DNA of 63,086 nt, filler included, from Reclinomonas americana ATCC 50394 (lineage: Eukaryota), in assembly GCA_048213135.1 (NCBI GenBank). It is 7 parts of 6 records of this genome, joined end to end, with 100 filler letters (N's around TTAATTAATTAA, not from the genome) between each part and the next. Parts side by side here need not be neighbours in the genome. Positions count along the whole stretch, not along the records: positions 19,406 to 31,259 come from PS015668.1; 6 more parts are not named here. One strand, 5' to 3'. The notes below the pieces were generated by a model that had not been told where the DNA came from, made no database searches, and saw nothing but the letters and a program-made list of their open reading frames with translations. Below are positions 15,180 through 56,450 of this stretch, piece by piece. Within the stretch, counting starts at the first letter, position 1, and each line of letters opens with the position of its first letter. A program made the translations under genes and the position numbers.

Positions 15180-16444
15180 NNNNNNNNNNNNNNNNNNNNN
15201 NNNNNNNNNNNNNNNNNNNNNNNNNNNNNNNNNNNNNNNNNNNNNNNNNNNNNNNNNNNNNNNNNNNNNNNNNNNNNNNNNNNNNNNNNNNNNNNNNNNN
15301 NNNNNNNNNNNNNNNNNNNNNNNNNNNNNNNNNNNNNNNNNNNNNNNNNNNNNNNNNNNNNNNNNNNNNNNNNNNNNNNNNNNNNNNNNNNNNNNNNNNN
15401 NNNNNNNNNNNNNNNNNNNNNNNNNNNNNNNNNNNNNNNNNNNNNNNNNNNNNNNNNNNNNNNNNNNNNNNNNNNNNNNNNNNNNNNNNNNNNNNNNNNN
15501 NNNNNNNNNNNNNNNNNNNNNNNNNNNNNNNNNNNNNNNNNNNNNNNNNNNNNNNNNNNNNNNNNNNNNNNNNNNNNNNNNNNNNNNNNNNNNNNNNNNN
15601 NNNNNNNNNNNNNNNNNNNNNNNNNNNNNNNNNNNNNNNNNNNNNNNNNNNNNNNNNNNNNNNNNNNNNNNNNNNNNNNNNNNNNNNNNNNNNNNNNNNN
15701 NNNNNNNNNNNNNNNNNNNNNNNNNNNNNNNNNNNNNNNNNNNNNNNNNNNNNNNNNNNNNNNNNNNNNNNNNNNNNNNNNNNNNNNNNNNNNNNNNNNN
15801 NNNNNNNNNNNNNNNNNNNNNNNNNNNNNNNNNNNNNNNNNNNNNNNNNNNNNNNNNNNNNNNNNNNNNNNNNNNNNNNNNNNNNNNNNNNNNNNNNNNN
15901 NNNNNNNNNNNNNNNNNNNNNNNNNNNNNNNNNNNNNNNNNNNNNNNNNNNNNNNNNNNNNNNNNNNNNNNNNNNNNNNNNNNNNNNNNNNNNNNNNNNN
16001 NNNNNNNNNNNNNNNNNNNNNNNNNNNNNNNNNNNNNNNNNNNNNNNNNNNNNNNNNNNNNNNNNNNNNNNNNNNNNNTGCGAGTAGAATTTTGATGAGT
16101 GCGTGTTTTTAGGGGGAGAGGGAGAGGGAGAGACAATGCATTGTAGACTTGTTTTTTCTTTCATACTTACTTTCTTCTCTTCTTCTCATGCAGAACGCGG
16201 TGCTGAGCTTGTTGATTCTTCACGTGAACTTGCCTCCGTTGTGATGTTGTCATTACTTTGGTCACTCCCGATGTCGCGCTCTCTGATGGTGTGCTTGGCG
16301 AAAATGTTGCGTGCTGATTGTGATTTCAGACCAGCGAGTGGCTCACCTCTTTGTTTTTTTTGCAGAGCTTGCTTGCTTCATGGAGCACTTGCGAACTTTA
16401 TTCATGTTGACATGAGCACTGGTGTGTTAATGCGAGTTAATGAC

Positions 16445-17135
16445 CTCTCTTTGTGTGTGTGTCTTTCTCTCTCTCAGTCTCTCTCAGTCTTTCTCTCAGT
16501 CTCTCTCTCAGTCTCTCTCTCTCAGTTTCTCTCGCAGTCTCTCAGTCTCTCTCTCAGTCTCTCTCTCACTCTCTCTCTCTCTCAGTCTCTCTCTCAGTCT
16601 CTCTCTCTCTTTCAGTCTCTCTCAGTCTCTCTCTCTCTCAGTCTCTTTCAGTCTCTCTTTCTCTCAGTCTCATTCTCTCAGTCTCTCTCTCAGTCTCTCT
16701 CTCAATCTCTCTCTCTCTCACTCTCTCTCTCTCTCAGTCTCTCTCTCAGTCTCTCTCTCTCTTTCAGTCTCTCTCAGTCTCTCTCTTTCTCAGTCTCTCT
16801 CTCAGTCTCTCTCTCAGTCTCTCTCTCAGTCTCTCTCTCTGTCTCTCTTTTTCTTTCTTTCTTTTTCTCTCTCAGTCTCTCTTTGTCCCTCTCTGCCTTT
16901 CTCTCTCTTCCGCTCTCTCTCTCTCTCTCAGTCTCTCTTCCGCTCTCTCTTAGTCTCTCTCAGTCTCTCTCTCTGTCTCTCTCTGAGTCTCTTTCTCTCT
17001 CTCAGTCTCTCAGTCTCTCTCTCTCTCTCTTTTCTCTCAGTGTCTCTTTCTCTCTCTCTCAGTCTCTCTCAGTCTTTCTCTCAGTCTCTCTAGCAATCTC
17101 TCTCTCTCAGTCTCTCTCTCAGTCTCTCTCAGTCT
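16445..17135 (+). repeat. CT-rich degenerate microsatellite (CTCTCAGT-type)
   Basis: Seen directly; the SLSLSL ORFs over it are spurious. Confidence 0.9.
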
Positions 17136-18289: not shown

Positions 18290-18844
18290 GCGGGGCGCAT
18301 GGCGCGGGATCAGTTCAAGCCGTGAGTGGAGTGGTGATGGACGAGGAGCGCTGATTTCCCGTTGTGCAGTGCGGGGTTTGCGGCGCCGTTGGGGTTGAAG
18401 GATGCGCGGTTGGTGAAGGAGTTGGAGGAGAAAGGGCGTGAAATGAGGAGAAGGTGGTACATGTGAGGATGGAGGGGAAGAGTGGGGAATGGAGAAGTCC
18501 TGTTTGTTGCGCAGGCGGATCCTGAGTTGGATTGGTCGGCAATAATCATGCAAGTGCGCGACTCGGTTGGTATTCCGTCGATGGCTGAGGAGCTGCATCA
18601 GCGTTAGGGGGAGTGGGATGAGAAGGAAGTGAAGATCGCTCGTTGCGATGAAGTGAACGGCTGAGGAAACAGTTTACTTTGCCATGAGACGGGGTATGAA
18701 GCAAGGAAGGAACATAAAGTTGCACTATGCGCGTGAAACCAAGGCAATCACAGTGCAATGAGGGCAACATATGGGAAGTGGGGTGATGCTGGTATTCACA
18801 ATCCAGACCACCCGGTCCCGGTGCAATGGAAATTATTTATGAGA

Positions 18845-18931
18845 GAAACTAAGAGAGACTGAGAGAGACAGAGACTGAGAGAGAAGGAGAGATACTGAGA
18901 GAGATAGAGATTGAGAGAGACTGAGAGAGAC

Positions 18932-18968
<37 letters not shown>

Positions 18969-19305
18969 AGAGATACTGAGAGATACTGAGAGACAGAGAC
19001 TGAGAGTGAGACTGAGAAAGAGACTGAGGGAGAGACTAAGAGTGAGACTGAGAGATAGACTGAGAGAGAGGGAGACTGAGAGAGAGGCAGAGAGAGAGAG
19101 AGAGACTGAGAGAGAGACTGAGAGAGAGACTGAGAGAGAGACTGAGAGAGACTGAGAGAGAGACTGAGAGAGACTGAGAGAGAGACTGAGAGAGAGAGAG
19201 ACTGAGAGAGAGACTGAGAGAGAGACTGAGAGAGAGACTGAGAGTGAGACTGAGAGAGAGACTGAGAGAGAGACTGAGAGTGAGACTGAGAGTGAGACTG
19301 AGAGT
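18845..19305 (+). repeat. GA-rich microsatellite (GAGAGACT-type), reverse complement of the 16445-17135 motif
   Basis: Seen directly. Confidence 0.9.
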
Positions 19306-19405
19306 NNNNNNNNNNNNNNNNNNNNNNNNNNNNNNNNNNNNNNNNNNNNTTAATTAATTAANNNNNNNNNNNNNNNNNNNNNNNNNNNNNNNNNNNNNNN
19401 NNNNN

Positions 19406-19716
19406 GTGTGTCCCTCCAATCGTCGCACTTCCTCACCACTTTCCAACGACCACACACGCACTGTGTTGTCGTAACTGCCACTCACAACGTGTTTACCATC
19501 GGGGGTGACAGCGACAGACGTCACCCATGCGGTGTGTCCCTCCAAGCGTCGCACTTCCTCGCCACTTGCCAGTGACCAAACACGCAATGTGCCATCAAAA
19601 CTGCCACTGACGATGTGCTGACCATCGGGAGTGACGGCGACAGACATCACCGTACCAGTGTGCCCAAGCAGAGATTTGAAAGGGAGGAGAGAGTGGCGAG
19701 AAGGAGCGAGAGACAT
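19406..19716 (-). CDS. WD40-repeat protein, array copy 1 (5' part; the rest is in a gap)
   Basis: MSLAPSRHSLLPFKSLLGHTGTVMSVAVTPDGQHIVSGSFDGTLRVWSLASGEEVRR...; ATG at 19716. Confidence 0.85.
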
Positions 19717-19947
19717 GGCGAACGGAGTGTGCGTGCGCACTGAGAGAGGGAGGGAATTGATACGGGACACTGACGCTTAGATACTGTAGTGTCGACGCTG
19801 TGAGCAGGCGTCTTTGTGGCAAAGCACGCTGCATGGTGCCAGGAGGGACCACATACAGCCTGCCAGATTGCTTCACTGGTGCACTTTTGCACGAAAAGTC
19901 ACGACGGGAGAACGCAAAGAAAATAACAACACGTTCAAAGATGCGAC

Positions 19948-21723
19948 TCAGGGTCCGCCTCGGCGATACTCGACGACCGCTGCCTCCTCGACAATGAAGC
20001 AACGCAGCACCATCTCTGGCAGGCACCGAGAGTCACCTTCGTCACCCGCAACCCTCTGCATCTCTTGCACAGCGCGCATCGCCTCTCGCGCTGCGCGGAG
20101 CTCTTTTCGCGCAAGGCCGCACGGAGTGGACCACACGTGCACGGCATGGTCCTTGCCGCCGCTCAAAACGTGCTCACCATCCGCGGTGACGGCGACAGAT
20201 AGCATCACGCGGTCGTCGGCACGTCTCTCGATCCGCCAGACTTCTTCTCCGCTCGCCAGTGACCACTCTCGCACTGTGCCGTCCCAACTCGCACTCACAA
20301 CGTGCCGCCCATCGGGAGCGATGGCGCGCGATGTCACCCAGTCGCCGTGTCCTTTTAGCTCTCGCACCTCCTCACCGCTCGCCAGTGACCACATTTGCAC
20401 GATTCCCTTACCGCCACCTAGAATGTGCTCACCATCGGGAGTGACAACAACCGCCAGCACTGCTGCGTTGCGTCCATGTAGCCGTCGCACCTCCTTGCCA
20501 CTCACAAGTGACCACACTCGTACAGTGCCATCATTCCCACCACTAACTACAAACTCGCCANNNNNNNNNNNNNNNNNNNNNNNNNNNNNNNNNNNNNNNN
20601 NNNNNNNNNNNNNNNNNNNNNNNNNNNNNNNNNNNNNNNNNNNNNNNNNNNNNNNNNNNNNNNNNNNNNNNNNNNNNNNNNNNNNNNNNNNNNNNNNNNN
20701 NNNNNNNNNNNNNNNNNNNNNNNNNNNNNNNNNNNNNNNNNNNNNNNNNNNNNNNNNNNNNNNNNNNNNNNNNNNNNNNNNNNNNNNNNNNNNNNNNNNN
20801 NNNNNNNNNNNNNNNNNNNNNNNNNNNNNNNNNNNNNNNNNNNNNNNNNNNNNNNNNNNNNNNNNNNNNNNNNNNNNNNNNNNNNNNNNNNNNNNNNNNN
20901 NNNNNNNNNNNNNNNNNNNNNNNNNNNNNNNNNNNNNNNNNNNNNNNNNNNNNNNNNNNNNNNNNNNNNNNNNNNNNNNNNNNNNNNNNNNNNNNNNNNN
21001 NNNNNNNNNNNNNNNNNNNNNNNNNNNNNNNNNNNNNNNNNNNNNNNNNNNNNNNNNNNNNNNNNNNNNNNNNNNNNNNNNNNNNNNNNNNNNNNNNNNN
21101 NNNNNNNNNNNNNNNNNNNNNNNNNNNNNNNNNNNNNNNNNNNNNNNNNNNNNNNNNNNNNNNNNNNNNNNNNNNNNNNNNNNNNNNNNNNNNNNNNNNN
21201 NNNNNNNNNNNNNNNNNNNNNNNNNNNNNNNNNGTGGTCACTGGCAAGTGGCGAGGAAGTGCGACGCTTGGAGGGACACACTGGATGGGTATGCTCAGTA
21301 GCTGTCGTTCCTGATGGGAAGCACATTATCAGCGGGAGTGCAGATAACACAGTGCGTGTGTGGTTGCTGGAGAGTGGAGAAGAGGTGCGACGGATTGAGG
21401 GAGGTGCTGGTTGGGTGCACTCCATCGCTGTCACCCCAAACGGTCAGCACATAATGAGCTGCAGCATAGAGAAGACAGTGCGAGTGTGGTCTCTGGCAAG
21501 TGGAGACGAAGTGCGACGACTGGAGGGACACACTGATTGGGTGCGATCGGTGACCGTCACTCCCAANNNNNNNNNNNNNNNNNNNNACACGCACGGTGTT
21601 GTCATAGCTGCCACTGATGATGTGTCGGCCATCGGGAGTGACGGCGACACACGACACCGTATTGGTGTGACCCACGAGGCACTTGGTGGCGAAGAGAGAG
21701 GGCCGTGAAGGAGCGAGAGACAT
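19948..21723 (-). CDS. WD40-repeat protein, array copy 2 (middle contig 21234-21565 placed in reverse orientation)
   Basis: The N-terminus (21723-21587), the + strand contig 21234-21565 and 20560-19948 join base-perfectly into a 7-WD ORF ending ...RCLPEMVLRCFIVEEAAVVEYRRGGP*. Confidence 0.8.
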
Positions 21724-21923
21724 GGCGAAAGGAGTGAAGGCGTGCAAATAACGAAATGGAAATATCATGCGTGACACGGAAGCATTGTGTGACGCTTGTG
21801 AAGTGTTGCCAGAAGGGAGCGTGCAATCCTGCCAGACTCCTTCACATCTGCATTTTTTTACTTGACAAACCGCGGGAGAGAGAGAGAGAGAGAGAGAACG
21901 CAAAGAAAGAATCAAGACGCTCA

Positions 21924-22500
21924 TCATAAGTGCATGTCGGGGTCGACGGTGTACCGATACACGATGGCCTCGGCCTCCTCGACAATGAAGCAGCGCAGCA
22001 CCATCTCTGGCAGCAGCACCTCCATCATAACTCGCGCTGCGCGGAGCTCTTCACGCGCAACGCCGCACGGAGTGGACCACACTCGAACGGTCTTGTCTGC
22101 ACCCGCACTCACTACGTGTTGACCGTCAGGAGTGACACTGACACACCAAACCCTGCCGGTGTGCCCCTCCATCCATTGCACTTCTTCTCCACTCGCCAGT
22201 GACCACACTCGCACTGTGGTGTCCCAACTCGCGCTGACAACGTGCCGCTCACTCGCGGGTGGCGAGGAGGTACGCCGATTGGAGATGCACAATGCAGTGG
22301 TGACGGTTGTTGTCACTCCCGACGGTGAGCACATTCTGGGTGGCGGTAAGGGAATCGTGCAAATGTGGTCGCTGGCGAGCGGCGAGAAGGTGCGACAGCT
22401 GAAAGGACACACTGCGTGGGTGACATCACTCGCCATCGCTCCCGACTGACCACATTCGCACGGTGTGATCATCGCCGCCACTCACAATGAATTCGCCGTT
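21924..22500 (-). pseudogene. WD40 array copy 3: 5'-truncated, with an internal inversion (22251-22447)
   Basis: Begins mid-repeat (NGEFIVSGGDDHTVRMWS); the next ~65 codons read on the + strand; it then resumes with ERHVVSASWD... to DPDMHL*. Confidence 0.8.
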
Positions 22501-23517
22501 GATACACGATGGCCTCGGCCTCCTCGACAATGAAGCAGCGCAGCACCATCTCTGGCAGGCATCGTGGGTACTCCAACTCCTGCACAGCGCACATTGCTGC
22601 TCTCGCTGTTTGGAGCTCTTCTCGCGCGAGGCCACACGAAGTGGACAACACTCGCACGGCCTTGTCCATTCCGCCGCTCACAACGTGCTCACCATTGGGA
22701 GTGACAGCGACGCACCACACCCTACCCGTGTGACCCTCCATCCGTCGCGCTTCATATACAAATCCATTCACCAGCGACCACACTCGCACAGTGCCGTCCG
22801 AATTCGCACTCATAACATGCCGCGCGTCGGGAACAATGGCGAGTGACGTCACCCATTCGCCTCCTTTCAGCTGTCGCGTGCACACCTCCTCGCCGCTCGC
22901 CAGCGACCATATTTGCACTTGTCCGCCGCCACCACCACTCAAAATGTGCTGGCCGTCGTGAGTTACAACCGTAACAGCTGAAGCGTATATCCGTCGCACT
23001 TCCTCGCCACTCGCGAGGGACCACATTCGTACAGTGTGATCGTTGCCGCCACTCACTACGAACTCGTCGTTGGGAGTGACGGTGACTGATTGCACATTTA
23101 AAATGTGACCCACCAAGCGTCGCACTTCTTCTCCACTTGCCAGCGACCACACACGCACAGTCCTGTCGTAGCTTCCACTCACAATGAACTCGCCATTGGG
23201 CGTGACGGCCACAGTTCTCACCCAATTAGTGTGTCCCACCAACCGACGCACCTCTTCTCCGCTCTCCAACGACCACACTCGCACTGTGTGACCCGCACCC
23301 CCACTCACAACATGCCGACCATCGGGAGTGACAGCGACAGATTCCACCATCCCTTTATGTCCCTCCAAGCGTCGTACTTCCTCGCCATTTGCCAGTGACC
23401 ACACACGCACGGTCTTGTCGCTGCTGCCACTGACGATGCGACAGACATCACCGTACCAGTGTGCCCAAGCAGAGATTTGAAAGGGAGGAGTGAGGGACGA
23501 GAAGGAGCGAGAAACAT
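22501..23517 (-). pseudogene. WD40 array copy 4: 22-nt frameshifting deletion in WD1, 3' end fused to copy 3
   Basis: At ~23438 the paralogue segment tgctgaccatcgggagtgacgg is missing; the tail EAIVY joins directly to internal copy 3 sequence at 22500/22501. Confidence 0.8.
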
Positions 23518-23735
23518 GGTGAACGGAGTGCGCGTGCGCGAAAGTGATCGAAAGTGGGATCGAAAGTGGAAAGGATTAAACGTGGGACGCGGACGCCTTG
23601 TGTCGACGCTGTGAGGAATGGCTCGAGTGTTGTCAGAGGGGAGTATGCTTCCTGCCGCACTACTTCACAACTGCATTTTTACTTGACAAACCGCGGAGGG
23701 AGAACGCAAAGAAAGAGAACAAGGTCTCACATGAA

Positions 23736-24821
23736 TCACAGATGCGACTCCGGGTCCACTCTTCGGCGATAAACGACGGCCTCGGCCTCCTCGACAATGA
23801 AGCAGCGCAGTACCATCTCTGGCAGGCATCGAGAATCATCTATACCAAAGGCCAGCTGCATCTCCTGCACAGCGCACATCGCCTCTCGCGCAGCGACGAG
23901 CTCTTCGCGCGCGAGGCCGCACGGAGACGACCACACATGCACGGCCTTGTCCTCGCCGACGCTCACAACGCGCTCGCCATCCGCGGTGACGGCGACAGAG
24001 TACACATGGCCGGAGTGCCCCTCTATCCGCCACACTTCTTCGCCACTAGCCAGTGACCACACTCGCACTGTGCTGTCCCAACTCGCACTCACAACATGCC
24101 GCCCATCGGGAGCGATGGCGAGCGATGTCACCCAGTCGCCGTGTCCTTTTAGCTCTCGCACCTCCTCACCGCTCGCCAGCGACCACATGTGCACTCTACC
24201 ATTGCCGCCGCCACTCACAATATGTTCGCCGTCAGGAGTGACAACAACCGTCAGCACAGCTACAGTGGGTAGCCGTCGCACCTCCTTGCCACTCACAAGT
24301 GACCACACTCGTACAGTTCGATCATTGCCGCCACTCACAATAAACTCGCCACTGGGAGTGACGGTGACTGACCTCACCCAGAAAGTGTGACCCTCCAGTC
24401 GTCGTACCTCCTCTCCACTTGCCAGTGACCACACTCGCACTGTCTTATCGTCACTCCCACTCACAATGAACTCGCCATTGGGCGTGACGGCAACAGTTCT
24501 CACCCCTTGAGTGTGTCCCTCCAACCGCCGCACCTCTTCTCCGCTCTCCAACGACCACACACGCACTGTGTGACCCGCACCCCCACTCACAACATGCCGA
24601 CCATCGGGAGTGACAGCAACAGATTCCACCAGCCCTGTGTGGCCCTCCAAGAGTTGCACTTCCTCGCCACTTGCCAGTGACCACATGCGCACAGTCTCAT
24701 CGTGACTGCCACTTACGATGTGCTGACCATCGGGAGCGACGGCGACAGACATCACCGGACCAGTATGCCCCACGAGGCACTTGGTGGCGAGGAGAGAGGG
24801 CCGTGAAGGAGCGAGAGACAT
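23736..24821 (-). CDS. WD40-repeat protein, array copy 5 (intact, 361 aa, 7 WD repeats + C-terminal helical tail)
   Basis: Uninterrupted ORF MSLAPSRPSLLATKCLVGH...DSRCLPEMVLRCFIVEEAEAVVYRRRVDPESHL*. Confidence 0.92.
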   Translation of the reverse strand: MSLAPSRPSLLATKCLVGHTGPVMSVAVAPDGQHIVSGSHDETVRMWSLASGEEVQLLEGHTGLVESVAVTPDGRHVVSGGAGHTVRVWSLESGEEVRRLEGHTQGVRTVAVTPNGEFIVSGSDDKTVRVWSLASGEEVRRLEGHTFWVRSVTVTPSGEFIVSGGNDRTVRVWSLVSGKEVRRLPTVAVLTVVVTPDGEHIVSGGGNGRVHMWSLASGEEVRELKGHGDWVTSLAIAPDGRHVVSASWDSTVRVWSLASGEEVWRIEGHSGHVYSVAVTADGERVVSVGEDKAVHVWSSPCGLAREELVAAREAMCAVQEMQLAFGIDDSRCLPEMVLRCFIVEEAEAVVYRRRVDPESHL

Positions 24822-25002
24822 GGCGAACGGAGGGAAGGCGAAAGTGGAAGTACGTGCGGGACACGGACGCATTGTGTCGAAGCTGCACTTTATTGCGAAG
24901 CACACCGCATGCTGCCAGAAGAGAACTGCCAGACTCCTTCACAACTGCATTTTACTTCACAAGCCACAACGAGAGAACAAAAAGAAAGAATCAAGACACA
25001 AA

Positions 25003-26402
25003 TCACATATGCGAGTCTGGCCATGGGTCTACGCTGCGCCGATACACGATGACCGCTGCCTCCTCGACAATGAAGCAGCGCAGTACCATCTCTGGCAGGC
25101 ACCGAGAGTCACCTTCGCCACCCGCAACCCGCTNNNNNNNNNNNNNNNNNNNNNNNNNNNNNNNNNNNNNNNNNNNNNNNNNNNNNNNNNNNNNNNNNNN
25201 NNNNNNNNNNNNNNNNNNNNNNNNNNNNNNNNNNNNNNNNNNNNNNNNNNNNNNNNNNNNNNNNNNNNNNNNNNNNNNNNNNNNNNNNNNNNNNNNNNNN
25301 NNNNNNNNNNNNNNNNNNNNNNNNNNNNNNNNNNNNNNNNNNNNNNNNNNNNNNNNNNNNNNNNNNNNNNNNNNNNNNNNNNNNNNNNNNNNNNNNNNNN
25401 NNNNNNNNNNNNNNNNNNNNNNNNNNNNNNNNNNNNNNNNNNNNNNNNNNNNNNNNNNNNNNNNNNNNNNNNNNNNNNNNNNNNNNNNNNNNNNNNNNNN
25501 NNNNNNNNNNNNNNNNNNNNNNNNNNNNNNNNNNNNNNNNNNNNNNNNNNNNNNNNNNNNNNNNNNNNNNNNNNNNNNNNNNNNNNNNNNNNNNNNNNNN
25601 NNNNNNNNNNNNNNNNNNNNNNNNNNNNNNNNNNNNNNNNNNNNNNNNNNNNNNNNNNNNNNNNNNNNNNNNNNNNNNNNNNNNNNNNNNNNNNNNNNNN
25701 NNNNNNNNNNNNNNNNNNNNNNNNNNNNNNNNNNNNNNNNNNNNNNNNNNNNNNNNNNNNNNNNNNNNNNNNNNNNNNNNNNNNNNNNNNNNNNNNNNNN
25801 NNNNNNNNNNNNNNNNNNNNNNNNNNNNNNNNNNNNNNNNNNNNNNNNNNNNNNNNNNNNNNNNNNNNNNNNNNNNNNNNNNNNNNNNNNNNNNNNNNNN
25901 NNNNNNNNNNNNNNNNNNNNNNNNNNNNNNNNNNNNNNNNNNNNNNNNNNNNNNNNNNNNNNNNNNNNNNNNNNNNNNNNNNNNNNNNNNNNNNNNNNNN
26001 NNNNNNNNNNNNNNNNNNNNNNNNNNNNNNNNNNNNNNNNNNNNNNNNNNNNNNNNNNNNNNNNNNNNCAGCGACAGTACAAACCTCTTGAGTGTGTCCC
26101 TCCAATCGTCGCACTTCCTCACCACTTTCCAACGACCACACACGCACTGTGTTGTCGTAACTGCCACTCACAACATGCCGACCATCGGGAGTGACAGCGA
26201 CAGATTCCACCAGCCCTGTGTGGCCCTCCAAGAGTTGCACTTCCTCGCCACTTGCCAGTGACCACATGCGCACAGTCTCATCGTGACTGCCACTGACGAT
26301 GTGCTGACCATCGGGAGTGATGGCGACAGACATCACCGGACCAGTATGCCCCACGAGGCACTTGGTGGCGAGGAGAGAGGGCTGTGAAGGAGCGAGAGAC
26401 AT
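25003..26402 (-). CDS. WD40-repeat protein, array copy 6 (middle in gap 25134-26068)
   Basis: Family N-terminus at 26402 and family tail ...SVDPWPDSHM* at 25003. Confidence 0.8.
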
Positions 26403-26633
26403 GGCGAAAGGAGTGTGCGTGCGCACTGAGAGAGGGAGGGAATTGATGCGGGACACTGACGCTTAGATACTGTAGTGTCGACGCTGTGAGCAGGCGTCTT
26501 TGTGGCAAAGCACGCTGCATGGTGCCAGAAGGGACCACATACAGCCTGCCAGATTGCTTCACTGGTGCACTTTTGCACGAAAAGTCACGACGGGAGAACG
26601 CAAAGAAAATAACAACACGTTCAAAGATGCGAC

Positions 26634-27707
26634 TCAGGGTCCGCTTCGGCGATACTCGACGACCGCTGCCTCCTCGACAATGAAGCAACGCAACACCATC
26701 TCTGGCAGGCACCGAGAGTCACCCGCAACCCTCTGCATCTCTCGCACAGCGAACATTGCCTCCCGGGCTGCGCGGAGTTCTTTTCGCGCAAGGCCGCACG
26801 GAGTGGACCACACGTGCACGGCATGGTCCTTGCCGCCGCTCACAACGTGCTCACCATCCGCGGTGACGGCGACAGATAGCATCACGCGGTCGTCGGCGCG
26901 TCTCTCCATCCGTACCACTTCTTCACCGCTCGCCAGTGACCACACTCGCACTGTTCCGTCCAAACTTCCACTGACAACGTGCTGCTCGTCGGAAGTAACG
27001 GCGAGAGAGGTAACCCATGCAGTGTGTCCTTTCAGCTGTCGCACCTCCTCGCCGCTCGCCAGTGACCACATCTGCACAATTCCGTCACCGCCACCGAGAA
27101 TGTGTTCGCCGTCGGGAGTGACAACGACCGTCACCACTGCTGCGTTGCGTCCATGTAGCCGTCGCACCTCCTCGCCACTCACAAGTGACCACACTCGTAC
27201 AGTGCTATCATTCCCACCACTCACAACAAACTCGCCATTGGGAGTGACGGTCACCGATCGCACCCAATCAGTGTGTCCCTCCAGTCGTCGCACTTCGTCT
27301 CCACTTGCCAGAGACCACACTCGCACTGTCTTCTCTATGCTGCAACTCATTATGTGCAGACCGTTTGGGGTGACAGCGATGAAGTGCACCCACCCAGCAC
27401 CTCCCTCAATCCGTCGCACCTCTTCTCCACTCTCCAGCAACCACACAAGCACTGTGTTATCTGCACTCCCGCTGATAATGTGCTTCCCATCAGGAACGAC
27501 AGCAACTGAGCATACCCATGCGGTGTGTCCCTCCAAACGCCGTACTTCTTCGCCACTTGCCAGTGACCACACACGCACGGTCTTGTCATAGCTGCCACTG
27601 ACGACGTGTCGGCCGTCGGGAGTGACGGCGACAGACATCACAGTACCAGTGTGCCCAAGCAGAGATTTGAAAGGGAGGAGAGAGGGACGGGAGGGAGCGA
27701 GAGACAT
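26634..27707 (-). CDS. WD40-repeat protein, array copy 7 (intact, 357 aa)
   Basis: Uninterrupted 7-WD ORF plus tail ...RCLPEMVLRCFIVEEAAVVEYRRSGP*. Confidence 0.92.
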   Translation of the reverse strand: MSLAPSRPSLLPFKSLLGHTGTVMSVAVTPDGRHVVSGSYDKTVRVWSLASGEEVRRLEGHTAWVCSVAVVPDGKHIISGSADNTVLVWLLESGEEVRRIEGGAGWVHFIAVTPNGLHIMSCSIEKTVRVWSLASGDEVRRLEGHTDWVRSVTVTPNGEFVVSGGNDSTVRVWSLVSGEEVRRLHGRNAAVVTVVVTPDGEHILGGGDGIVQMWSLASGEEVRQLKGHTAWVTSLAVTSDEQHVVSGSLDGTVRVWSLASGEEVVRMERRADDRVMLSVAVTADGEHVVSGGKDHAVHVWSTPCGLARKELRAAREAMFAVREMQRVAGDSRCLPEMVLRCFIVEEAAVVEYRRSGP

Positions 27708-27898
27708 GGTGAACGGAGTGTGTGCGTGCAAGTGGAAAGGACATAACGTGGGACACTGACGCATAGAGTCGACGCTGTGAGCAACTGCTCAAGTGTTGCC
27801 AGAAGGGAACATGCACGCCGCCAGACTCTGTCACAGCTGCAATTTTCACTTGACAATCCACGAGGGAGAACGCAAAGAAGAGAATCAAGACATTCACG

Positions 27899-28560
27899 TC
27901 ACAAATGCATGTCGGGGTCCACGCTGTACCGATACACGATGGCCTCGGCCTCCTCAACTATGAAGCAGCGCAGCACCATCTCTGGCAAGCATCGTGAGTC
28001 GCCATCTTCGAAGGTCAGTTGCATCTCCTGCACAGCGCGCTTCGCCACTCGCGCTGCGCGGAGCTCTTCGCGCGCGAGGCCGCACCGAGTGGACCAAACT
28101 CGAACGATCTTGTCTGCACCCGCACTCACTACGTGTTGACCGTCAGGAGTGACACTGACGCACCAAACCCTGCCGGTGTGCCCCTCCATCCGTCGCACTT
28201 CTTCTCCACTCGCTAGTGACCACACTCGCACTGTGCCGTCCCAACTCGCGCTGACAACGTGCCGCTCGTCGGGAGTGACGGCGAGTGATGTCACCCATTC
28301 GCTGTGCCCTTTCAGCTCTCGCACGTCCTCGCCGCTCGCCAGCGACCACATGTTCACTCTTCCATTGCCGCCACCACTCAGAATGTGCTCACCGTCGGGA
28401 GTGACAACAACCGTCAGTACTGCAATGCGCATCTCCAATCGGCGTATCTCCTCGCCACTCGCGAGTGACCACACTCGCACACTGCCATCATTGCTACCAC
28501 TGACAATGAACTCACCAGTGGGAGAGACAGCCACAGACCGCACCCAGAAAGTGTGCCCTT
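27899..28560 (-). CDS. WD40-repeat protein, array copy 8 (5' part in gap)
   Basis: WD repeats 4-7 plus tail ...YRYSVDPDMHL*; the family upstream spacer is present at 28694-28860. Confidence 0.82.
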
Positions 28561-28869
28561 NNNNNNNNNNNNNNNNNNNNNNNNNNNNNNNNNNNNNNNN
28601 NNNNNNNNNNNNNNNNNNNNNNNNNNNNNNNNNNNNNNNNNNNNNNNNNNNNNNNNNNNNNNNNNNNNNNNNNNNNNNNNNNNNNNNNNNNNNAATAGAA
28701 ACGAAGGTGATTTTATGGGACACGGACGCATTGTGTCGACGCTGTGAGCAATTGCTCGAGTGTTGCCAGAAGGGAGCATGCATCCTGCCAGACTCCGTCA
28801 CAACTGCATTTTACTTCACAAGCCACCACAAGAGAACAAAAAGAAAGAATCAAGACACTCACTTATTGT

Positions 28870-29949
28870 TCATGGGTCTACGCTGCGCATGCGCCGATAC
28901 ACGATGACCTCGGCATCCTCGACAATGAAGCAGCGCAGCACCATCTCTGACAGGCATCGAGAGTCGCCATCTTCGAAGGCCAGCTGCATCTCCTGCACAG
29001 CGCACATCGCCGCTCTCGCTGTGTGGAGCTCTTCTCGCGCGAGGCCGTACGGAGTGGACCACACTCGCACGGCGTTGTCCTTGCCGCAGCTCACGACGTG
29101 CTCACCATCGGGAGTGACAGCCACACACCACACCTGGCTGGTGTGCCCCTCCATCCGCCAGACTTCTTCACCGCTCGACAGTGACCACACTCGCACTGTG
29201 GTGTCCCAACTCGCACTCACCACGTGCCGCTCGTCGGGAGTGATGGCGAGTGATGTCACCCACGTAGTGTGTCCTTTCAGCTGTTGAACCTCCTCGCCGG
29301 TCGCCAGCGACCACATTTGCACGATTCCGTCACCTCCTCCACTCAGAATATGTTGACCGTCAGGAGTGACTACAACCGTCAGCACAGCTACAGTGGGTAG
29401 CCGTCGCACCTCCTCCCCACTCGCGAGTGACCACACTCGTACAGTGCGATCATTGCCGCCACTCACTACGAACTCACCAGTGGGAGTGACGGCGACAGAC
29501 CTCACCCATTCAGTGTGCCCCTCCAGTCGTCGCACCTCCTCTCCACTTGCCAAAGACCACACACGCACAGTCTTGTCACTGCCTCCACTTACAACGTGTT
29601 GACCGTCGGGAGCGAAGGCAACGGACCACGCCGAACCAGTGTGTCCCTCCAATCGTCGCACTTCTACTCCACTCATCTCCAGCAACCACACAATGGCTGA
29701 GTCGCGGCAGCAGATCACGATGTGCTTCCCGTCAGGAGCGACGGCGACAGATTCCACCCAGGAAGTGTGGCCCTCGAAGCGTCGCACTTCCTCGCCACTT
29801 GCCAGCGACCACACACGCACGGTGTTGTCATAGCTGCCACTGACGACGTGTCGGTCATCAGGAGTGACGGCGACAGACATCACCGTACCAGTGTGCCCAA
29901 GCAGAGATTTGAAAGGGAGGAGAGAGGAACGAGAAGGAGCGAGAGACAT
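28870..29949 (-). CDS. WD40-repeat protein, array copy 9 (intact, 359 aa)
   Basis: Uninterrupted 7-WD ORF; tail variant RCLSEMVLRCFIVEDAEVIVYRRMRSVDP*. Confidence 0.9.
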   Translation of the reverse strand: MSLAPSRSSLLPFKSLLGHTGTVMSVAVTPDDRHVVSGSYDNTVRVWSLASGEEVRRFEGHTSWVESVAVAPDGKHIVICCRDSAIVWLLEMSGVEVRRLEGHTGSAWSVAFAPDGQHVVSGGSDKTVRVWSLASGEEVRRLEGHTEWVRSVAVTPTGEFVVSGGNDRTVRVWSLASGEEVRRLPTVAVLTVVVTPDGQHILSGGGDGIVQMWSLATGEEVQQLKGHTTWVTSLAITPDERHVVSASWDTTVRVWSLSSGEEVWRMEGHTSQVWCVAVTPDGEHVVSCGKDNAVRVWSTPYGLAREELHTARAAMCAVQEMQLAFEDGDSRCLSEMVLRCFIVEDAEVIVYRRMRSVDP

Positions 29950-30142
29950 GGTGAACGGAGTGGCGGCAAGTGGAAAGGCCTTTTCACGCGGGACGCGGAC
30001 GCCTTGTCGACGCTGTGAGAGGTGATCCTGGTGTAGCCAGAAGGGAGCACGTACACCCTGCCAGACTCCATCCCAACTGCAATTTACCTTCACAATCCAC
30101 GAGGGAGAACGCGAAAAAAAGAGAAAAAGGTCTCACATATCA

Positions 30143-30262
30143 TTAAATCGACTCCGGGTGCACGGTGCGCCGATGCACGATGGCCTCAGCCTCCTCGCCG
30201 ACGAAGCGGGCATCGAGGGTCTCCTTCCCCCAGTGATTGCACCCATCGCCTCTCTGCGCTCG
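30143..30262 (-). pseudogene. Degenerate remnant of the WD40-family C-terminal tail
   Basis: Frameshifted matches REAMGA... and RFVGEEAEAIVHRRTVHPESI*, located where the previous array unit's tail is expected. Confidence 0.6.
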
Positions 30263-30303
30263 CACACTGTCTGTCTGTTCGTGATACAGCCACTGCGGGA
30301 TGA

Positions 30304-30600
30304 TCATCTCATCATGGACATGCGCCTTTTCGCTCCCACTACTCCATGCAACGATCTCCCATCATACGCAAACGGATTGTCGCTGGCCTGGCGAATCTTG
30401 GCTCGCCACAAAGCCACGAGACCAACCGTCACCGCCACGGTCAGTGCCATTGTCGACCACAGTGAGGCGGTGTCACTTTTGGCCAGCGCCGCAAATCGCT
30501 CGCGTAGCCACTCCCACGGACGCAGCACGAGTTCGTGCAGTCGATCGACCACCAACCACGAGGTGGTGGAGGGCAAGTGGCGAGCGATGGCGTGCATCAC
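30304..30600 (-). CDS. Small hypothetical protein or exon with one hydrophobic (TM-like) segment
   Basis: 98-aa ORF containing LWSTMALTVAVTVGLVALW; protein-like composition only. Confidence 0.35.
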   Translation of the reverse strand: MMHAIARHLPSTTSWLVVDRLHELVLRPWEWLRERFAALAKSDTASLWSTMALTVAVTVGLVALWRAKIRQASDNPFAYDGRSLHGVVGAKRRMSMMR

Positions 30601-31372
30601 GTCGACGAGAGAGGAGAGCAGGCCTGTGCGTATGACGGGAAGTGAGAGGTGGAAAGACGCACGAGGGTGGGGAGAAAGAGGACGAGCGAAGAGAAAAGTG
30701 ACGGGTCAAGGGCGTGACGAACACAGGTAGATCTCTTAAACTTGCTGACAGATAAAAACACAGAGGCAGACACGGGAAAAGAAGAGAAAAGAAGAAGAAA
30801 AGCGCCTCCCTCTCTGGTTGCGCTGCAAGAGGGAACAAAGAATGGCAGTGCTCATCTTTCCCAACAGCCGACTGCAAGGCAGTGTCGTGCAGATGAGAAG
30901 CGCTGCCTTTTTCCTCTTCTCCTTCTCTCCCTTTCTCGTTGCGTTTGTGTGAGCTTCAACATGTCACAGCAACTCTAGAGAAATCGTTCTTCCTCGCTTC
31001 CTCTCTCAGTGATACGCAGGGAGGCAGTATGGAGAGACGAAGAGGCAAAGCTTCTCTCTCTAGTTCCTCTCTCTCTCTCTCTCTCTGTGCACGGGTACAG
31101 GAAGGAACAAAAAAACGAGAAAGCTCTTACGGTGAAGAAGCTCTTCTTTCTCTCTCGCTTCCTCTCCAAGTGATGCACAGAGAGAAGGATCGATAATGCT
31201 CCTCTCTCGCTTCCACAAGGAAACAAAGAACAGCATCGCTCTTCTTTCTCTCACTGATGNNNNNNNNNNNNNNNNNNNNNNNNNNNNNNNNNNNNNNNNN
31301 NNNTTAATTAATTAANNNNNNNNNNNNNNNNNNNNNNNNNNNNNNNNNNNNNNNNNNNNAACGGACGTCCTC

Positions 31373-52111: not shown

Positions 52112-53197
52112 ATGTCATTCCCTCCCCTCCTCCTCACCAACCGCCTTGTCGGGCACGGCGACTACGTGCGCTCTGTGGTCGTCACAGAAGACGGCCAGCA
52201 CATTATCAGTGGCAGCTCAGACAAGACTGTGTGCGTGTGGTCTCTGCTGACAGGTCAGGAGGTGCGACGACTGGAGGGACACACTGCGTGGGTGCAGTGC
52301 GTCGCCGTCACTCCCACTGGCGAGTTTATCGTGAGCGGAGGTGGCGACAAGGCACTGCGAGTGTGGGCGCTGGCCAGTGGTGAGGAGGTGCGACAACTGG
52401 AGGGTCACTGTGACTCGGTGTGGACAGTGGCCACCACGCGCGACAGTCGGTACGCGCTGAGTGGCGCCAGTGACAACACCATCCGCCTGTGGGCACTGGC
52501 GAGTGGCGAGGAGGTGCGTCGGCTGGAGGGCCACACTGCCCCGGTCATGTCGGTCACCACGACGCACGATGGACAGCGGATTGTGAGCGGGAGTCGAGAC
52601 CGCACGGTGCGCGTGTGGTCACTGGCGAGTGGGGAGGAGGTGCAGCGATTCGAGGGGCACAGCAACTGGGTGCGCTCTGTGGCCGTTGCCCGCGACGATG
52701 TGCACATTGCCAGTGGGAGCTGGGAGGCCAACACACGAGTGTGGTCAATGGCGACGGGCAAGGAAGCGCAGCGATTCGTGGGACCCATGCGCGATGTGTG
52801 GTCCGTGGCCTTCACTCCCGACTGCCAGTTCGTGGTCACGGGAAACGGCGACACCACTGTGCGTGTGTGGTCCATGGCGAGTGGCTTGGAGGTGCGTCAG
52901 GTGGCGGACCACTTTTCACAAGTGTACTCGGTCGCCGTCACGCTCGACGGGCAGCGCGTGGTGAGTGGCTGCATGGACTACAGAGTGCGTGTGTGGTCCA
53001 CACCGTGCGGCCTGGCGCTGCGAGAGCTCGACTGGGCGCGTGCGGCCATGGCGGCAGTGCAGGAGGAGATGCAGCGGCGACAGGAGGGCGGGGAGGATTC
53101 GCGGTGCCTGCCGGAGATGGTGCTGCGCTGCTTTGTCGTCGAGGATGCGGCGGCCATTGTGCATAGGTGTAGCGTGGATCCCGAGATGCATATGTGA
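52112..53197 (+). CDS. WD40-repeat protein, diverged stand-alone paralogue of the array (361 aa, 7 WD + same tail)
   Basis: MSFPPLLLTNRLVGHGDYVRSV...STPCGLALRELDWARAAMAAVQEEMQ...DSRCLPEMVLRCFVVEDAAAIVHRCSVDPEMHM*; intronless. Confidence 0.92.
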   Translation: MSFPPLLLTNRLVGHGDYVRSVVVTEDGQHIISGSSDKTVCVWSLLTGQEVRRLEGHTAWVQCVAVTPTGEFIVSGGGDKALRVWALASGEEVRQLEGHCDSVWTVATTRDSRYALSGASDNTIRLWALASGEEVRRLEGHTAPVMSVTTTHDGQRIVSGSRDRTVRVWSLASGEEVQRFEGHSNWVRSVAVARDDVHIASGSWEANTRVWSMATGKEAQRFVGPMRDVWSVAFTPDCQFVVTGNGDTTVRVWSMASGLEVRQVADHFSQVYSVAVTLDGQRVVSGCMDYRVRVWSTPCGLALRELDWARAAMAAVQEEMQRRQEGGEDSRCLPEMVLRCFVVEDAAAIVHRCSVDPEMHM

Positions 53198-55331: not shown

Positions 55332-56418
55332 CTAGTGCGCGCGGGTACGCAACTTGATCTGCGCGAGACGGGTTACCGTGTCGGCAAAGTCGAGGGGAGT
55401 GAGGCGCGCGAGAGGTGTGAGTCCGTACTGCGGGCCGGCTTTGGGGGCGGTGCGCTGGGCGACGTGCGACCAGAGATCCTTGAGGTGGAGCAGGTGTTCC
55501 TCCTGCATGGAGTCGGCAAGGGCCAGGAGGTCGCCGTGCGAGGAGTGCGTCCTGGTGGCGAATGGAAAGGAGAAGAATTAGAAGGAGGCCCCTCAGGGGC
55601 GGGGGAAGGCAAAGTGTGAGGGTATCGGAAGAGGAGGAGATGATGGAGAAGGAGGAGGAGGAAAGAAGGACAGACAGACAGACAGACAGAGGAGAGAGAG
55701 AGAAAGAAAGAGAAAAAGAGGAGAGAAAGAAAGAAAGAATGAATGAATGAAAGGGGAACGGAAGTACAGGTTATAGGTGAGAGAGAAAGAGAGTGACAGA
55801 GAGAGAGAAAGAGAAAGAGGAGAAAGCAGGAAAGAACAAGAGAAAGAGAGAAAGAAAGAAAGAAAGAGGGCAAGAAAGAGAGAAAGAGAGAAAGAGTGAG
55901 AAAGAGAGCAAGAAAGAGAGAGAGAAAGAAAGTGAGAGAGCAAGAATGAGAAAGAAAGAGAGAAAGAAAGAATGAGAGAGATAGAAAGACAGAAAGAAAG
56001 ACAGACAGACAGACAGACAGACAGGGAAGAGAGAGAGCGAGAATGAAAGAGAGAAAGAGAGAAAGAGAAAAAGAAAGAGAGAGAAAGAGAAAAGGAAGGA
56101 GAAAGAAAGAAAAAGGAAGAAAAAAAGAGAGAGAAAGAAAGTGAGAGAGCAAGAATGAGAAAGAAAGAGAAGAAAGAGAAAGAGAGAAAGAAAGAGAGAG
56201 AGATAGACAGACAGGGAAGAGAGAGAGCGAGAATGAAAGAGAGAAAGAGAGAAAGAGAAAAAGAAAGAGAGAGAAAGAGAAAAGGAAGGAGAAAGAAAGA
56301 AAAAGGAAGAAAAAGAGAGAGAGAAAGAAAGTGAGAGAGCAAGAATGAGAAAGCAAGAGAAGAAAGAGAAAGAGAGAAAGAAAGAGAGAGAGATAGAAAG
56401 ACAAAGAGAAAGACAGAA

Positions 56419-56450
<32 letters not shown>

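What the first reader, a model, noticed from the sequence alone, without database searches (positions are those of the whole stretch)
19406..30262. Tandem family of 7-bladed WD40 proteins with variable binding-face residues: candidate protist recognition/immunity repertoire
Seen: nine head-to-tail ~1.3-kb units. The repeat scaffold (VRVWSLASGEEVRRLEGH) is nearly invariant within and between genes. Variation clusters at GHT-xx-V-x-S (GT/M, AW/C, GL/E, QG/R, FW/R, DW/R, NW/R, SW/E, GS/W, TW/T, SQ/W, GR/W, GH/Y) and at SG-x-x-D (H, Y, F, D, N, W, A, K, E, M). Established: these positions form the top face of WD propellers, and similar positions are under diversifying selection in the high-internal-identity WD40 repeats of the fungal HNWD/HET-E non-self receptors. 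Inference: a birth-and-death family of ligand-recognition modules, here with no NACHT domain and a short adaptor tail instead.
Basis: partly seen in the sequence, partly recalled or inferred. Interest (0 to 1): 0.8.

Follow-up and report, generated by a model that had tools for sequence, protein, structure and literature searches.

The report
Tandem WD40 propeller genes, orphan tail
A protist scaffold carries a row of about nine old gene copies, each encoding a ring-shaped WD40 binding protein with a conserved tail of no known family; the copies differ mostly on one half of the binding face, but nothing shows the fast, immune-type diversification that was first suspected.

Summary
The array is real. 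Nine units of an intronless gene lie at 19406-30262, mainly on the minus strand. Each encodes a seven-blade WD40 propeller plus a 62-68 aa helical tail. A tenth, diverged copy lies at 52112-53194. Three units are intact. A fourth is intact once a misoriented 333-bp contig is turned. Three are cut only by N gaps and two carry real lesions.

Copies differ most at top-face positions, the same ones as in fungal HET-E. The rest of the analogy fails:
- Blades within a gene are old (60-64% nt identity, dS 1.2-1.5).
- 45 of 46 blades are closest to the same-numbered blade of another copy, so there is no concerted evolution.
- Copies are old (dS about 0.5) and constrained (omega about 0.3).
- Top-face omega is 0.4-0.7, or about 1 against the gene-wide synonymous rate. 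It never significantly exceeds 1.
- Contact residues of blades 4-6 are conserved; those of blades 1-3 and 7 vary.

The tail matches no Pfam or PDB sequence. It recurs in a Reclinomonas americana EST product and in three database proteins, two of them with propellers only about 25% identical.

Best reading: a lineage-restricted adaptor family. An immune role is unsupported.

The scan had already noted this family on at least eight other pieces of this genome.

The parts
28870..29949 (-). U1: intact gene, 359 codons plus stop. Seven WD40 blades plus tail.
   Evidence: ORF. Pfam WD40 E 4.6e-75 with 7 stretches.
27899..28560 (-). U2: 3' part of a gene (blade 4 to stop, 219 codons). The 5' part is lost in N gap 28561-28693.
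26634..27707 (-). U3: intact gene, 357 codons plus stop.
   Evidence: Pfam WD40 E 4.6e-64.
25003..26402 (-). U4: open N-terminal part (26070-26402) and tail end (25003-25131), separated by N gap 25134-26068.
23736..24821 (-). U5: intact gene, 361 codons plus stop. This copy was the one modelled.
   Evidence: WD40 E 2.3e-74. AF2 pLDDT 89, 7 blades, N-terminal strand 11-17, helices 300-325 and 333-353.
22469..23517 (-). U6: lesioned copy. It has a 22-nt deletion at CDS nt 79-100 (frameshift), two 2-codon insertions, and a tail end that runs into a blade of U7.
21924..22500 (-). U7: rearranged fragment. Blades 1-3 and most of blade 4 are missing, segment 22258-22446 is inverted (reads on +), and the tail has an internal deletion.
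21587..21723 (-). U8, 5' piece (start codon to blade 1).
   Evidence: collinear with 27571 onward, 78%.
21234..21566 (+). U8, middle piece. A 333-bp contig lying between two N runs and placed in the wrong orientation.
   Evidence: It is the reverse complement of 27238-27570 at 96.4%. Turned and joined with zero-length gaps, U8 reads as 360 codons plus stop.
19948..20560 (-). U8, 3' piece (blade 4 to stop).
   Evidence: 19406-20560 matches 26092-27237 at 90.3%.
19406..19716 (-). U9: start codon to the start of blade 3. It is cut by the N44-TTAATTAATTAA-N44 join at 19306-19405.
26403..26633 (-). Example of the conserved inter-unit spacer (181-231 nt). It contains a pyrimidine-rich block followed by TGCAG, and conserved blocks up to the ATG.
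   Evidence: Alignment of 7 spacers: 58% mean column identity, 67 invariant columns.
52112..53194 (+). X11: intact diverged paralogue (360 codons plus stop) with the same tail, on another piece of the window.
   Evidence: dS about 1.2 to U1, U3 and U5, the three array copies compared with it.

Best explanation
This is a lineage-restricted multigene family of small cytosolic adaptor proteins.

Each gene is intronless. It encodes a short N-terminal strand that closes the ring, a seven-blade WD40 propeller, and a C-terminal pair of helices. The second helix carries the family signature L-P-E-M-V-L-R-C-F-I-V-E-E-A.

The family grew by tandem duplication of the whole unit, gene plus its own roughly 200-nt spacer. 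A later three-unit segmental duplication and occasional short gene-conversion tracts between copies followed.

The copies are old and under purifying selection. They keep the contact residues of blades 4-6 and the tail, and differ in the contact residues of blades 1-3 and 7.

Inferred mechanism: the tail, and perhaps the conserved half of the face, docks every copy onto one shared partner. The variable half of the face gives each copy its own target.

Shown here: anatomy, age, selection regime and tail conservation. Inferred: docking, adaptor function, and any target.
For: Anatomy:
- Pfam finds WD40 families (the best 25 of 49-52 matched families are shown, all WD40 or beta-propeller).
- The AF2 model has seven blades, pLDDT 89.
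- Closest solved folds are consensus-like propellers 5yzv and 2ymu, then LIS1 and WDR5.

Age and constraint:
- Units are 73-81% identical in DNA.
- Pooled dS is 0.52 and omega 0.30.
- ML omega: all 0.335, scaffold 0.28, tail 0.27.

Blade orthology:
- 45 of 46 array blades have their nearest neighbour in the same-numbered blade of another copy, and 0 in their own gene.
- 5 of 7 blade classes are monophyletic, support 0.86-1.0.

Half-conserved face:
- Core contact positions r5, r7, r23 differ between copies in 0.17-0.22 of comparisons in blades 4-6.
- In blades 1, 2, 3 and 7 the figure is 0.52-0.85.
- Omega is 0.27 at those positions in blades 4-6, P(<1) = 0.0016 (the subset was chosen post hoc).

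Tail as family signature:
- A profile of six window tails against 1.84 billion proteins gave 6 hits. Four keep the tail at the C-terminus behind WD-like sequence.
- One is a Reclinomonas americana EST product, 62% identical.
- P0124 and P0126 have propellers only 21-31% identical, yet keep L..[MV][VI]LRCF..E.

Other points:
- Mosaic tracts: 6 of 10 copy pairs have concordant runs with permutation P <= 0.002.
- Each unit, including the first, has a conserved spacer.
Against: - No partner, target or expression of these particular copies is known.
- The tail is modelled only at moderate to low confidence: pLDDT 36-78 in the full model and 74 alone.
- The tail gives no informative fold match.
- As assembled, only 3 of 9 units are intact. 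Two carry lesions that, if real, make them pseudogenes.
- The conserved half and variable half of the face were noticed post hoc, on at most 7 copies per blade.
- Near-neutral rates at r4 and r25 (omega 1.1-1.7, not significant) leave room for some adaptive change.
Confidence: 0.6

Rival explanations
1. Diversifying recognition or immune-like repertoire. The copies would be a panel of sensors whose top-face residues are driven apart by positive selection, as in the WD40 domains of fungal HET-E/HNWD receptors. Here the sensor would be separate from any effector domain and coupled to it through the tail.
For: - Copy-to-copy variation peaks at the HET-E positions plus r4 (Paoletti 2007, passages).
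- dN at six top-face positions is 4.4 times that of the scaffold: 0.486 against 0.111.
- Against the gene-wide synonymous rate, top-face omega is 0.94-1.01 and r4 is 1.5-1.7.
- There are 33 distinct r5/r7/r23/r25 combinations in 46 blades.
- Gene-conversion-like tracts occur between copies.
- Earlier notes of this scan report many arrays in the genome (unverified here).
Against: - No class of sites has omega significantly above 1 by NG86, parsimony counts or ML.
- The four HET-E positions have omega 0.42-0.58, significantly below 1 (P = 0.007; LRT 2dlnL 8.9).
- Copies are old (dS about 0.5).
- Blades do not homogenise.
- Half of the face is conserved.
- The three youngest pairs give top-face omega 0.41, 0.57 and 2.6, the last on only 16 codons.
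Confidence: 0.12
2. Substrate receptors of a ubiquitin ligase. The tail would be a degenerate F-box-, BC/SOCS-box- or similar helical docking motif that plugs the propeller into a cullin-type ligase. This would be like WD40 proteins with an F-box or a C-terminal SOCS box (architecture recalled, not tested here).
For: - The architecture is a variable propeller plus a short, highly conserved helical motif.
- The motif begins L-P-x-x-[VI]-L, which resembles the first helix of an F-box. This resemblance is recalled from memory and is only a lead.
- Tail omega is 0.27, as constrained as the scaffold.
Against: - Pfam scans of six tails at E up to 10 gave no F-box or SOCS box, only two chance-level families with one member each.
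- A profile search of PDB sequences gave nothing below E 0.3.
- Only about 25 residues follow the L-P, too few for a three-helix F-box.
- The cullin gene in the window lies on other pieces, and its proximity means nothing.
Confidence: 0.15
3. Largely an assembly artefact or a decaying array. The apparent copy number and variety would come from collapsed, chimeric or allelic contigs and pseudogenes, not from a working family.
For: - There are four N gaps inside the array, and their stated sizes are wrong. Two behave as zero length. The 133-N gap must hide at least about 400 nt.
- One contig is misoriented.
- U6 and U7 have a frameshift, an inversion and a fusion that could be chimeric assembly.
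- 19406-22250 is collinear with 26092-28267.
Against: - Units differ by 19-27% in DNA, and the duplicated block by 4-22%. That is far too much for alleles or read errors.
- Omega of about 0.3 across copies shows long purifying selection on separate genes.
- Four copies plus X11 have full ORFs.
- Relatives exist in independent data.
Confidence: 0.08

Closest known systems
WD40 domains of the Podospora anserina HNWD/NWD receptors (HET-E, HET-D), Paoletti et al. 2007, PMC1805685 (passages read)
   Same: 42-residue WD repeats with a very consensus-like scaffold. The most variable positions coincide with the four selected codons: theirs 7, 9, 25, 27 equal r5, 7, 23, 25 here. These lie in the D-A loop and B-C turn of the top face. 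Sequence is exchanged between family members.
   Different: - No NACHT or other effector domain.
- Repeats are 52-57% identical (aa), not up to 100%.
- Blades keep their individual identity across copies instead of evolving in concert.
- Omega at the four codons is 0.42-0.58, not above 1.
- Every intact copy has seven blades.
- An orphan C-terminal tail is present.
Consensus-like prokaryotic and designer WD40 propellers (PDB 5yzv Thermomonospora, 2ymu 'highly repetitive propeller', 7big/7bie WRAP-T)
   Same: Best structural matches: Foldseek E 1e-35 to 1e-31, target TM 0.95-0.97 for the seven-blade entries (5yzv, 7big) and 0.47 for the 577-residue 2ymu, 36-39% identity. The best sequence hits are also bacterial or metagenomic WD40 proteins, 27-54% identity over 62-89% of the query.
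   Different: Those matches cover the propeller only and none has the tail. The likeness may reflect closeness to the WD40 consensus rather than descent.
Reclinomonas americana EST-derived ORF (EukProt EP00694 P005839, from EST EC795383; P0121) and Logan proteins P0122, P0124, P0126
   Same: Same tail at the C-terminus behind WD-like sequence. P0121 has tail-profile E 7e-28 and is 62% identical to window copies. P0124 (381 aa) and P0126 (394 aa) are of similar length to the window proteins and keep the LRCF..E core.
   Different: None is a copy of a window gene. P0124 and P0126 propellers are only 21-31% identical. The genomic arrangement of these relatives is unknown.
Gcp1-3, Pex7-like WD40 proteins of jakobids, heteroloboseans and malawimonads (Horvathova et al. 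2021, PMC8134430; passages read)
   Same: WD40 proteins restricted to a few protist lineages that include Reclinomonas.
   Different: They are described as Pex7 relatives, some with PTS1. No tandem arrays or shared tail are mentioned in the passages read.

Membership tests
WD40 repeat beta-propeller (Pfam PF00400) | Repeated WD40 units that fold into a closed propeller | tested here: met
   PF00400 E 2e-74, 5e-64 and 5e-75 with 7, 6 and 7 stretches. The AF2 model has 28 blade strands plus an N-terminal closing strand, pLDDT 89. Foldseek E 1e-35 to 5yzv.
HNWD/NWD fungal NLR family | N-terminal effector plus NACHT NTPase domain in front of the WD repeats | tested here: not met
   The conserved start MSLAPS lies 17 residues before blade 1. 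The previous unit's stop lies 181-231 nt upstream. The 25 Pfam families shown per protein are all WD40 or beta-propeller families.
HNWD/NWD fungal NLR family | Very high identity between repeat units within and between genes (up to 100%) | tested here: not met
   Between blades within a gene: 52-57% aa, 60-64% nt, dS 1.2-1.5. Synonymous difference in the conserved motif is 0.60, the same as elsewhere at 0.62.
HNWD/NWD fungal NLR family | Concerted evolution: repeats group by genome or gene, not by position | tested here: not met
   45 of 46 blades are nearest to the same-numbered blade of another copy, 0 to a blade of their own gene, and 1 to a different-numbered blade of another copy. Blade classes b1, b4, b5, b6 and b7 are monophyletic. 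Exchange between copies at homologous positions does occur.
HNWD/NWD fungal NLR family | Positive selection (dN/dS > 1) at four top-face codons | tested here: not met
   r5, 7, 23, 25: omega 0.58 with P(<1) = 0.007 by parsimony counts. ML omega 0.42, with 2dlnL 8.9 against omega = 1. Against the gene-wide synonymous rate it is 0.94. Only the copies of this window were used.
HNWD/NWD fungal NLR family | Variation concentrated at the D-A loop and B-C turn of the top face | tested here: met
   r4, r25, r23, r7, r3 and r5 are six of the seven most variable positions. Their place on the face follows from Paoletti 2007 and from general WD40 knowledge. Model coordinates could not be inspected here.
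F-box or SOCS/BC-box substrate receptors | Recognisable F-box or SOCS-box sequence | tested here: not met
   hmmscan of six tails against Pfam at E up to 10 returned only ANAPC5 (E 0.14) and GM130_C (E 0.24), one member each. The best PDB sequence profile hit is E 0.34, to eL34.
F-box or SOCS/BC-box substrate receptors | Fold and binding to Skp1 or Elongin C | tested here: inconclusive
   The tail-only model is a two-helix hairpin (pLDDT 74). The VIA-align wide search gives a flat list with best Z 6.8. Binding cannot be tested with these tools.

The most novel reading that the evidence does not exclude
The family could be a split intracellular recognition system. Dozens of stand-alone propeller sensors, spread over many arrays, would dock through the conserved tail onto one shared signalling or degradation hub. 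They would diversify by exchanging short tracts between copies and by near-neutral to adaptive change at r4, r25 and the contact residues of blades 1-3 and 7. That would be a receptor repertoire built without an NLR-type engine, in a deep-branching protist lineage.
Probability: 0.1. Interest if true: 0.75.

Novelty: new variant of a known kind. Interest (0 to 1): 0.35.

Why it matters
WD40 propellers are among the commonest binding platforms. Large tandem families of stand-alone propellers with a private, strongly conserved tail are not a described kind. Here the tail is better kept than the propeller in distant members, which points to an unknown docking partner that a simple pull-down could find.

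The window also serves as a caution. A hypervariable binding face can be largely the ordinary difference between blades, plus relaxed constraint on old paralogues. The HET-E analogy fails on three of its four defining evolutionary features.

Tried and rejected
- Whole genome: none is held for this window, so paralogues could not be counted genome-wide. Copy numbers elsewhere come only from earlier notes of this scan.
- Sequencing runs for 21587-25133: none was listed and no RNA holder was listed. Read support for the U6/U7 lesions and for expression could therefore not be checked, and read laying was not used.
- Tail word search in the 5.8-billion protein set, region 296-361, length window 198-632 aa: 12 candidates, none scored.
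- ESM Atlas with the tail: no usable hit.
- Tail loci in metagenome contigs: 2 loci, both only the word DSRCLPEM in unrelated context. Prokaryote genome contigs: 0 of 4 pattern matches confirmed. Viral contigs: 0 of 16 confirmed.
- Complex prediction with two copies of the tail: no verdict (score 0.00, controls not run). This is no evidence either way.
- Tail-only fold search (VIA-align wide): a flat list of generic helical hairpins, best Z 6.8. Uninformative.
- Of the six tail-profile hits, P0123 (repeats of a short word) and P0125 (1565 aa, six short stretches) were not treated as relatives. P0125 was not fetched.
- Gcp1-3 WD40 proteins of jakobids: considered, but no sequences were to hand. 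They are described as Pex7-like and were not pursued.
- Literature: two full-text searches ('WD40 / tandem array / diversifying selection / propeller', 29 papers with 12 listed; 'Reclinomonas / WD40', 6 papers with 5 listed). Judged from the titles and abstract openings of the papers listed, none describes a family like this. Only PMC1805685 and PMC8134430 were opened, and only as passages.
- The third homologous-protein search (longer or fused forms) was not spent. The tail profile search had no length limit.

Full report
**What is there**

The window is a draft scaffold with 27 N runs totalling 7,594 N. Six of these are joins of the form N44-TTAATTAATTAA-N44, at 14137, 19306, 31260, 39043, 43559 and 58270. 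The array lies on the piece 19406-31259.

The joins are not arbitrary. Cullin-family matches lie in the right order and strand on both sides of the join at 43559.

Six-frame scans find WD repeats with the motif VRVWSLASGEEVRRLEGH mainly on the minus strand. Inside the region there are seven conserved starts (M[SF]LAPS) and eight conserved tail motifs (EMVLRC). One more tail lies at 53114 on the plus strand.

I read nine units:
- Intact: U1 (28870-29949), U3 (26634-27707) and U5 (23736-24821).
- Open but cut by N gaps or the piece end: U2, U4 and U9.
- U6 has a 22-nt deletion at CDS nt 79-100, and its tail end runs into a blade of U7.
- U7 is a fragment with an inverted segment (22258-22446) and a deletion in the tail.
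- U8 is in three pieces. Its middle 333 bp (21234-21566) is the reverse complement of 27238-27570 at 96.4%. It abuts its neighbours to the base, 20560 with 27237 and 21587 with 27571. Turned, and with both N runs taken as zero length, U8 reads as 360 codons plus stop.

So 3 of 9 units are intact as assembled, probably 4. An intact diverged copy, X11, lies at 52112-53194.

N-run lengths are unreliable. The 133-N run must hide at least about 400 nt of U2.

**Higher-order structure**

Units are 73-81% identical in DNA. The block 19406-22250 is collinear with 26092-28267 at 90%, 96% and 78% in successive parts. This is a three-unit segmental duplication, later patched by exchange. It is not allelic or collapsed sequence.

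Spacers between units are 181-231 nt and conserved: 58% mean column identity and 67 invariant columns over seven spacers, including the one upstream of U1.

**The protein**

Pfam finds WD40-type families (E 2e-74 to 5e-64). It shows the best 25 of 49-52 matched families per protein, and all of those are WD40 or beta-propeller families.

AlphaFold2 on U5, with 24 aligned sequences, gives:
- a seven-blade propeller, pLDDT 89, pTM 0.83;
- an N-terminal strand at residues 11-17;
- helices at 300-325 (pLDDT about 75) and 333-353 (pLDDT 36-53).

The nearest solved folds are consensus-like propellers (5yzv, 2ymu, designer WRAP-T), then LIS1 and WDR5.

The best sequence relatives among 5.8 billion proteins are generic bacterial or metagenomic WD40 proteins. 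They show 27-54% identity over 62-89% of the query, which is the propeller only.

**The tail**

Six window tails align at 76% mean column identity. No known family or structure matches them:
- The tail has no Pfam family at E up to 10, apart from two chance-level rows.
- It has no PDB sequence match below E 0.3.
- It has no Atlas hit.
- It has no word-sharing protein of 198-632 aa.

A profile search of 1.84 billion representatives gave six hits. Four are real:
- P0121 is a 116-aa product of a Reclinomonas americana EST in EukProt. It scores E 7e-28 and is 55-63% identical to window copies.
- P0122 is a fragment.
- P0124 (381 aa) and P0126 (394 aa) have propellers only 21-31% identical. They still keep L..[MV][VI]LRCF..E at the C-terminus.

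So the tail is the family signature, and it is better kept than the propeller.

Scans of metagenome, prokaryote and viral contigs for the tail found no true relative.

**Is the variation on the top face?**

I numbered repeat positions from the G of GH (r1). I compared only the same blade between array copies.

Amino-acid differences peak at r4 (0.69), r25 (0.59), r23 (0.52) and r7 (0.49), then r16 (0.44) and r3/r5 (0.43). Most other positions lie at 0.05-0.3.

Paoletti et al. 2007 report positive selection at their codons 7, 9, 25 and 27. These form two pairs flanking conserved residues, in the D-A loop and the B-C turn (passages). They correspond to r5, 7, 23 and 25 here. The positional claim therefore holds.

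Per blade class there are only 3-6 distinct r5/r7/r23/r25 combinations among 5-7 copies.

The face is also split. Core contact positions r5, 7 and 23 differ in 0.17-0.22 of comparisons in blades 4-6, which is scaffold level. In blades 1, 2, 3 and 7 they differ in 0.52-0.85.

**Selection**

NG86, pooled over all pairs of U1-U9:

| Class | omega | Detail |
|---|---|---|
| whole gene | 0.30 | dS 0.52 |
| other blade positions | 0.23 | |
| tail | 0.33 | |
| six top-face positions (r3, 4, 5, 7, 23, 25) | 0.58 | dN 0.49, own dS 0.83 |

Parsimony counts on per-blade trees:

| Class | omega (own S) | Test | N rate / gene-wide S rate |
|---|---|---|---|
| HET-E four | 0.58 | P(<1) = 0.007 | 0.94 |
| six top-face positions | 0.69 | P(<1) = 0.017 | 1.01 |
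| r4 | 1.09 | not significant | 1.69 |
| r25 | 1.23 | not significant | not computed |
| other 36 positions | 0.29 | | 0.28 |

ML (IQ-TREE, GY+F1X4, fixed tree, 8 sequences; U4 and U9 left out as too short):

| Class | omega | 2dlnL against omega = 1 |
|---|---|---|
| all | 0.335 | |
| six top | 0.70 | 2.9 |
| HET-E four | 0.42 | 8.9 |
| rest | 0.28 | |
| tail | 0.27 | |

Post-hoc subsets are also never significantly above 1. Core positions of blades 4-6 have omega 0.27, P(<1) = 0.0016.

The three youngest pairs give top-face omega of 0.41, 0.57 and 2.6, the last from only 16 codons.

Limits of these tests:
- There are few and partial sequences.
- Some pairs are saturated.
- Ancestral states come from parsimony.
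- Recombination is present, which tends to inflate signals of selection rather than hide them.

**No concerted evolution of blades**

Within a gene, blades are 52-57% identical in protein and 60-64% in DNA, with dS 1.2-1.5.

The conserved motif is as saturated at synonymous sites (pS 0.60) as the rest (0.62). It is therefore kept by selection on the protein, not by DNA homogenisation.

Of 46 array blades, 45 are nearest to the same-numbered blade of another copy and none to a blade of their own gene. Five of seven blade classes are monophyletic; b2 and b3 are not (blades with more than 30 gap characters were dropped).

Between copies, 6 of 10 pairs of the five near-full-length copies show concordant tracts with permutation P <= 0.002. 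One further pair has P = 0.0135, and three are not significant. Homologous exchange between paralogues does occur.

**Verdict**

The array is real and the position of the variation is as described. Three of the four evolutionary hallmarks of the HNWD model are absent: near-identical repeats, concerted evolution, and omega > 1. There is also no NACHT.

The simplest reading is an old, constrained, lineage-restricted family of adaptors. It has a shared docking tail, a shared half-face and a copy-specific half-face. Docking and targets are inferred, not shown.

An E3-receptor role for the tail is a reasonable lead without sequence support. The homodimer test of the tail gave no verdict and the tail fold search was uninformative.

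**Earlier notes of this scan**

The same family was noted on at least eight other pieces of this genome:
- Two follow-ups concluded that the copies are old, stable paralogues. My results agree.
- One spoke of unusually fast swapping of contact residues. In this window I do not find that.
- One named a Reclinomonas transcript as the closest relative. I recovered it independently.

Noticed in passing
window 14137-14236, 19306-19405, 31260-31359, 39043-39142, 43559-43658, 58270-58369: Six identical joins of 44 N, TTAATTAATTAA (stops in all six frames), then 44 N. These are contig joins put in by the assemblers. Cullin matches continue in order across the one at 43559, so the joined pieces are ordered.
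   Followed up: partly
window 20561-21233, 21567-21586 and 21234-21566: A 333-bp contig between two N runs is placed in reverse orientation. Both N runs (673 and 20 N) behave as zero-length gaps. N-run lengths of 673 and 20 also recur elsewhere in the window (47085-47757, 53807-53826), so the lengths look formulaic.
   Followed up: yes
window 40546-47082, minus strand: A cullin-family gene broken by many introns. Pfam Cullin scores E 4e-43 at 42580-43557 and E 3e-17 at 45715-47082. It contrasts with the intronless WD40 genes.
   Followed up: partly
window 49211-50428, plus strand: Dual-specificity phosphatase catalytic motif (Pfam DSPc E 1.5e-09) at the end of an open frame. This is probably one exon.
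   Followed up: no
window 5600-8011, minus strand: An 804-codon open frame rich in repeated Gly-rich and FxxN-like units (GGGxxxxx...N..A). It has no Pfam family at E 0.001. It looks like a parallel beta-helix or adhesin-type repeat protein, but that is only an impression.
   Followed up: partly
window spacers, e.g. 26403-26633, 23518-23735, 29950-30180: Every inter-unit spacer keeps a pyrimidine-rich block followed by AAA(A)TGCAG about 130 nt upstream of the ATG, plus further invariant blocks. This could be a promoter or UTR, or a 3' splice or processing site for transcripts of the array.
   Followed up: no
window 18841-19304, 16400-17130, 55376-56712: Long (GAGAGAGACTGA)n and TC/GA-type microsatellites give long spurious Leu/Ser open frames. 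They flank several contig ends and probably caused the assembly breaks.
   Followed up: no
window 24398-24524 (U5 blade 3) and the matching blade of U6: Blade 3 of U5 and U6 groups with blade 4 sequences rather than with blade 3 of U1, U3 and U8. This hints at one old blade replacement within the family.
   Followed up: partly
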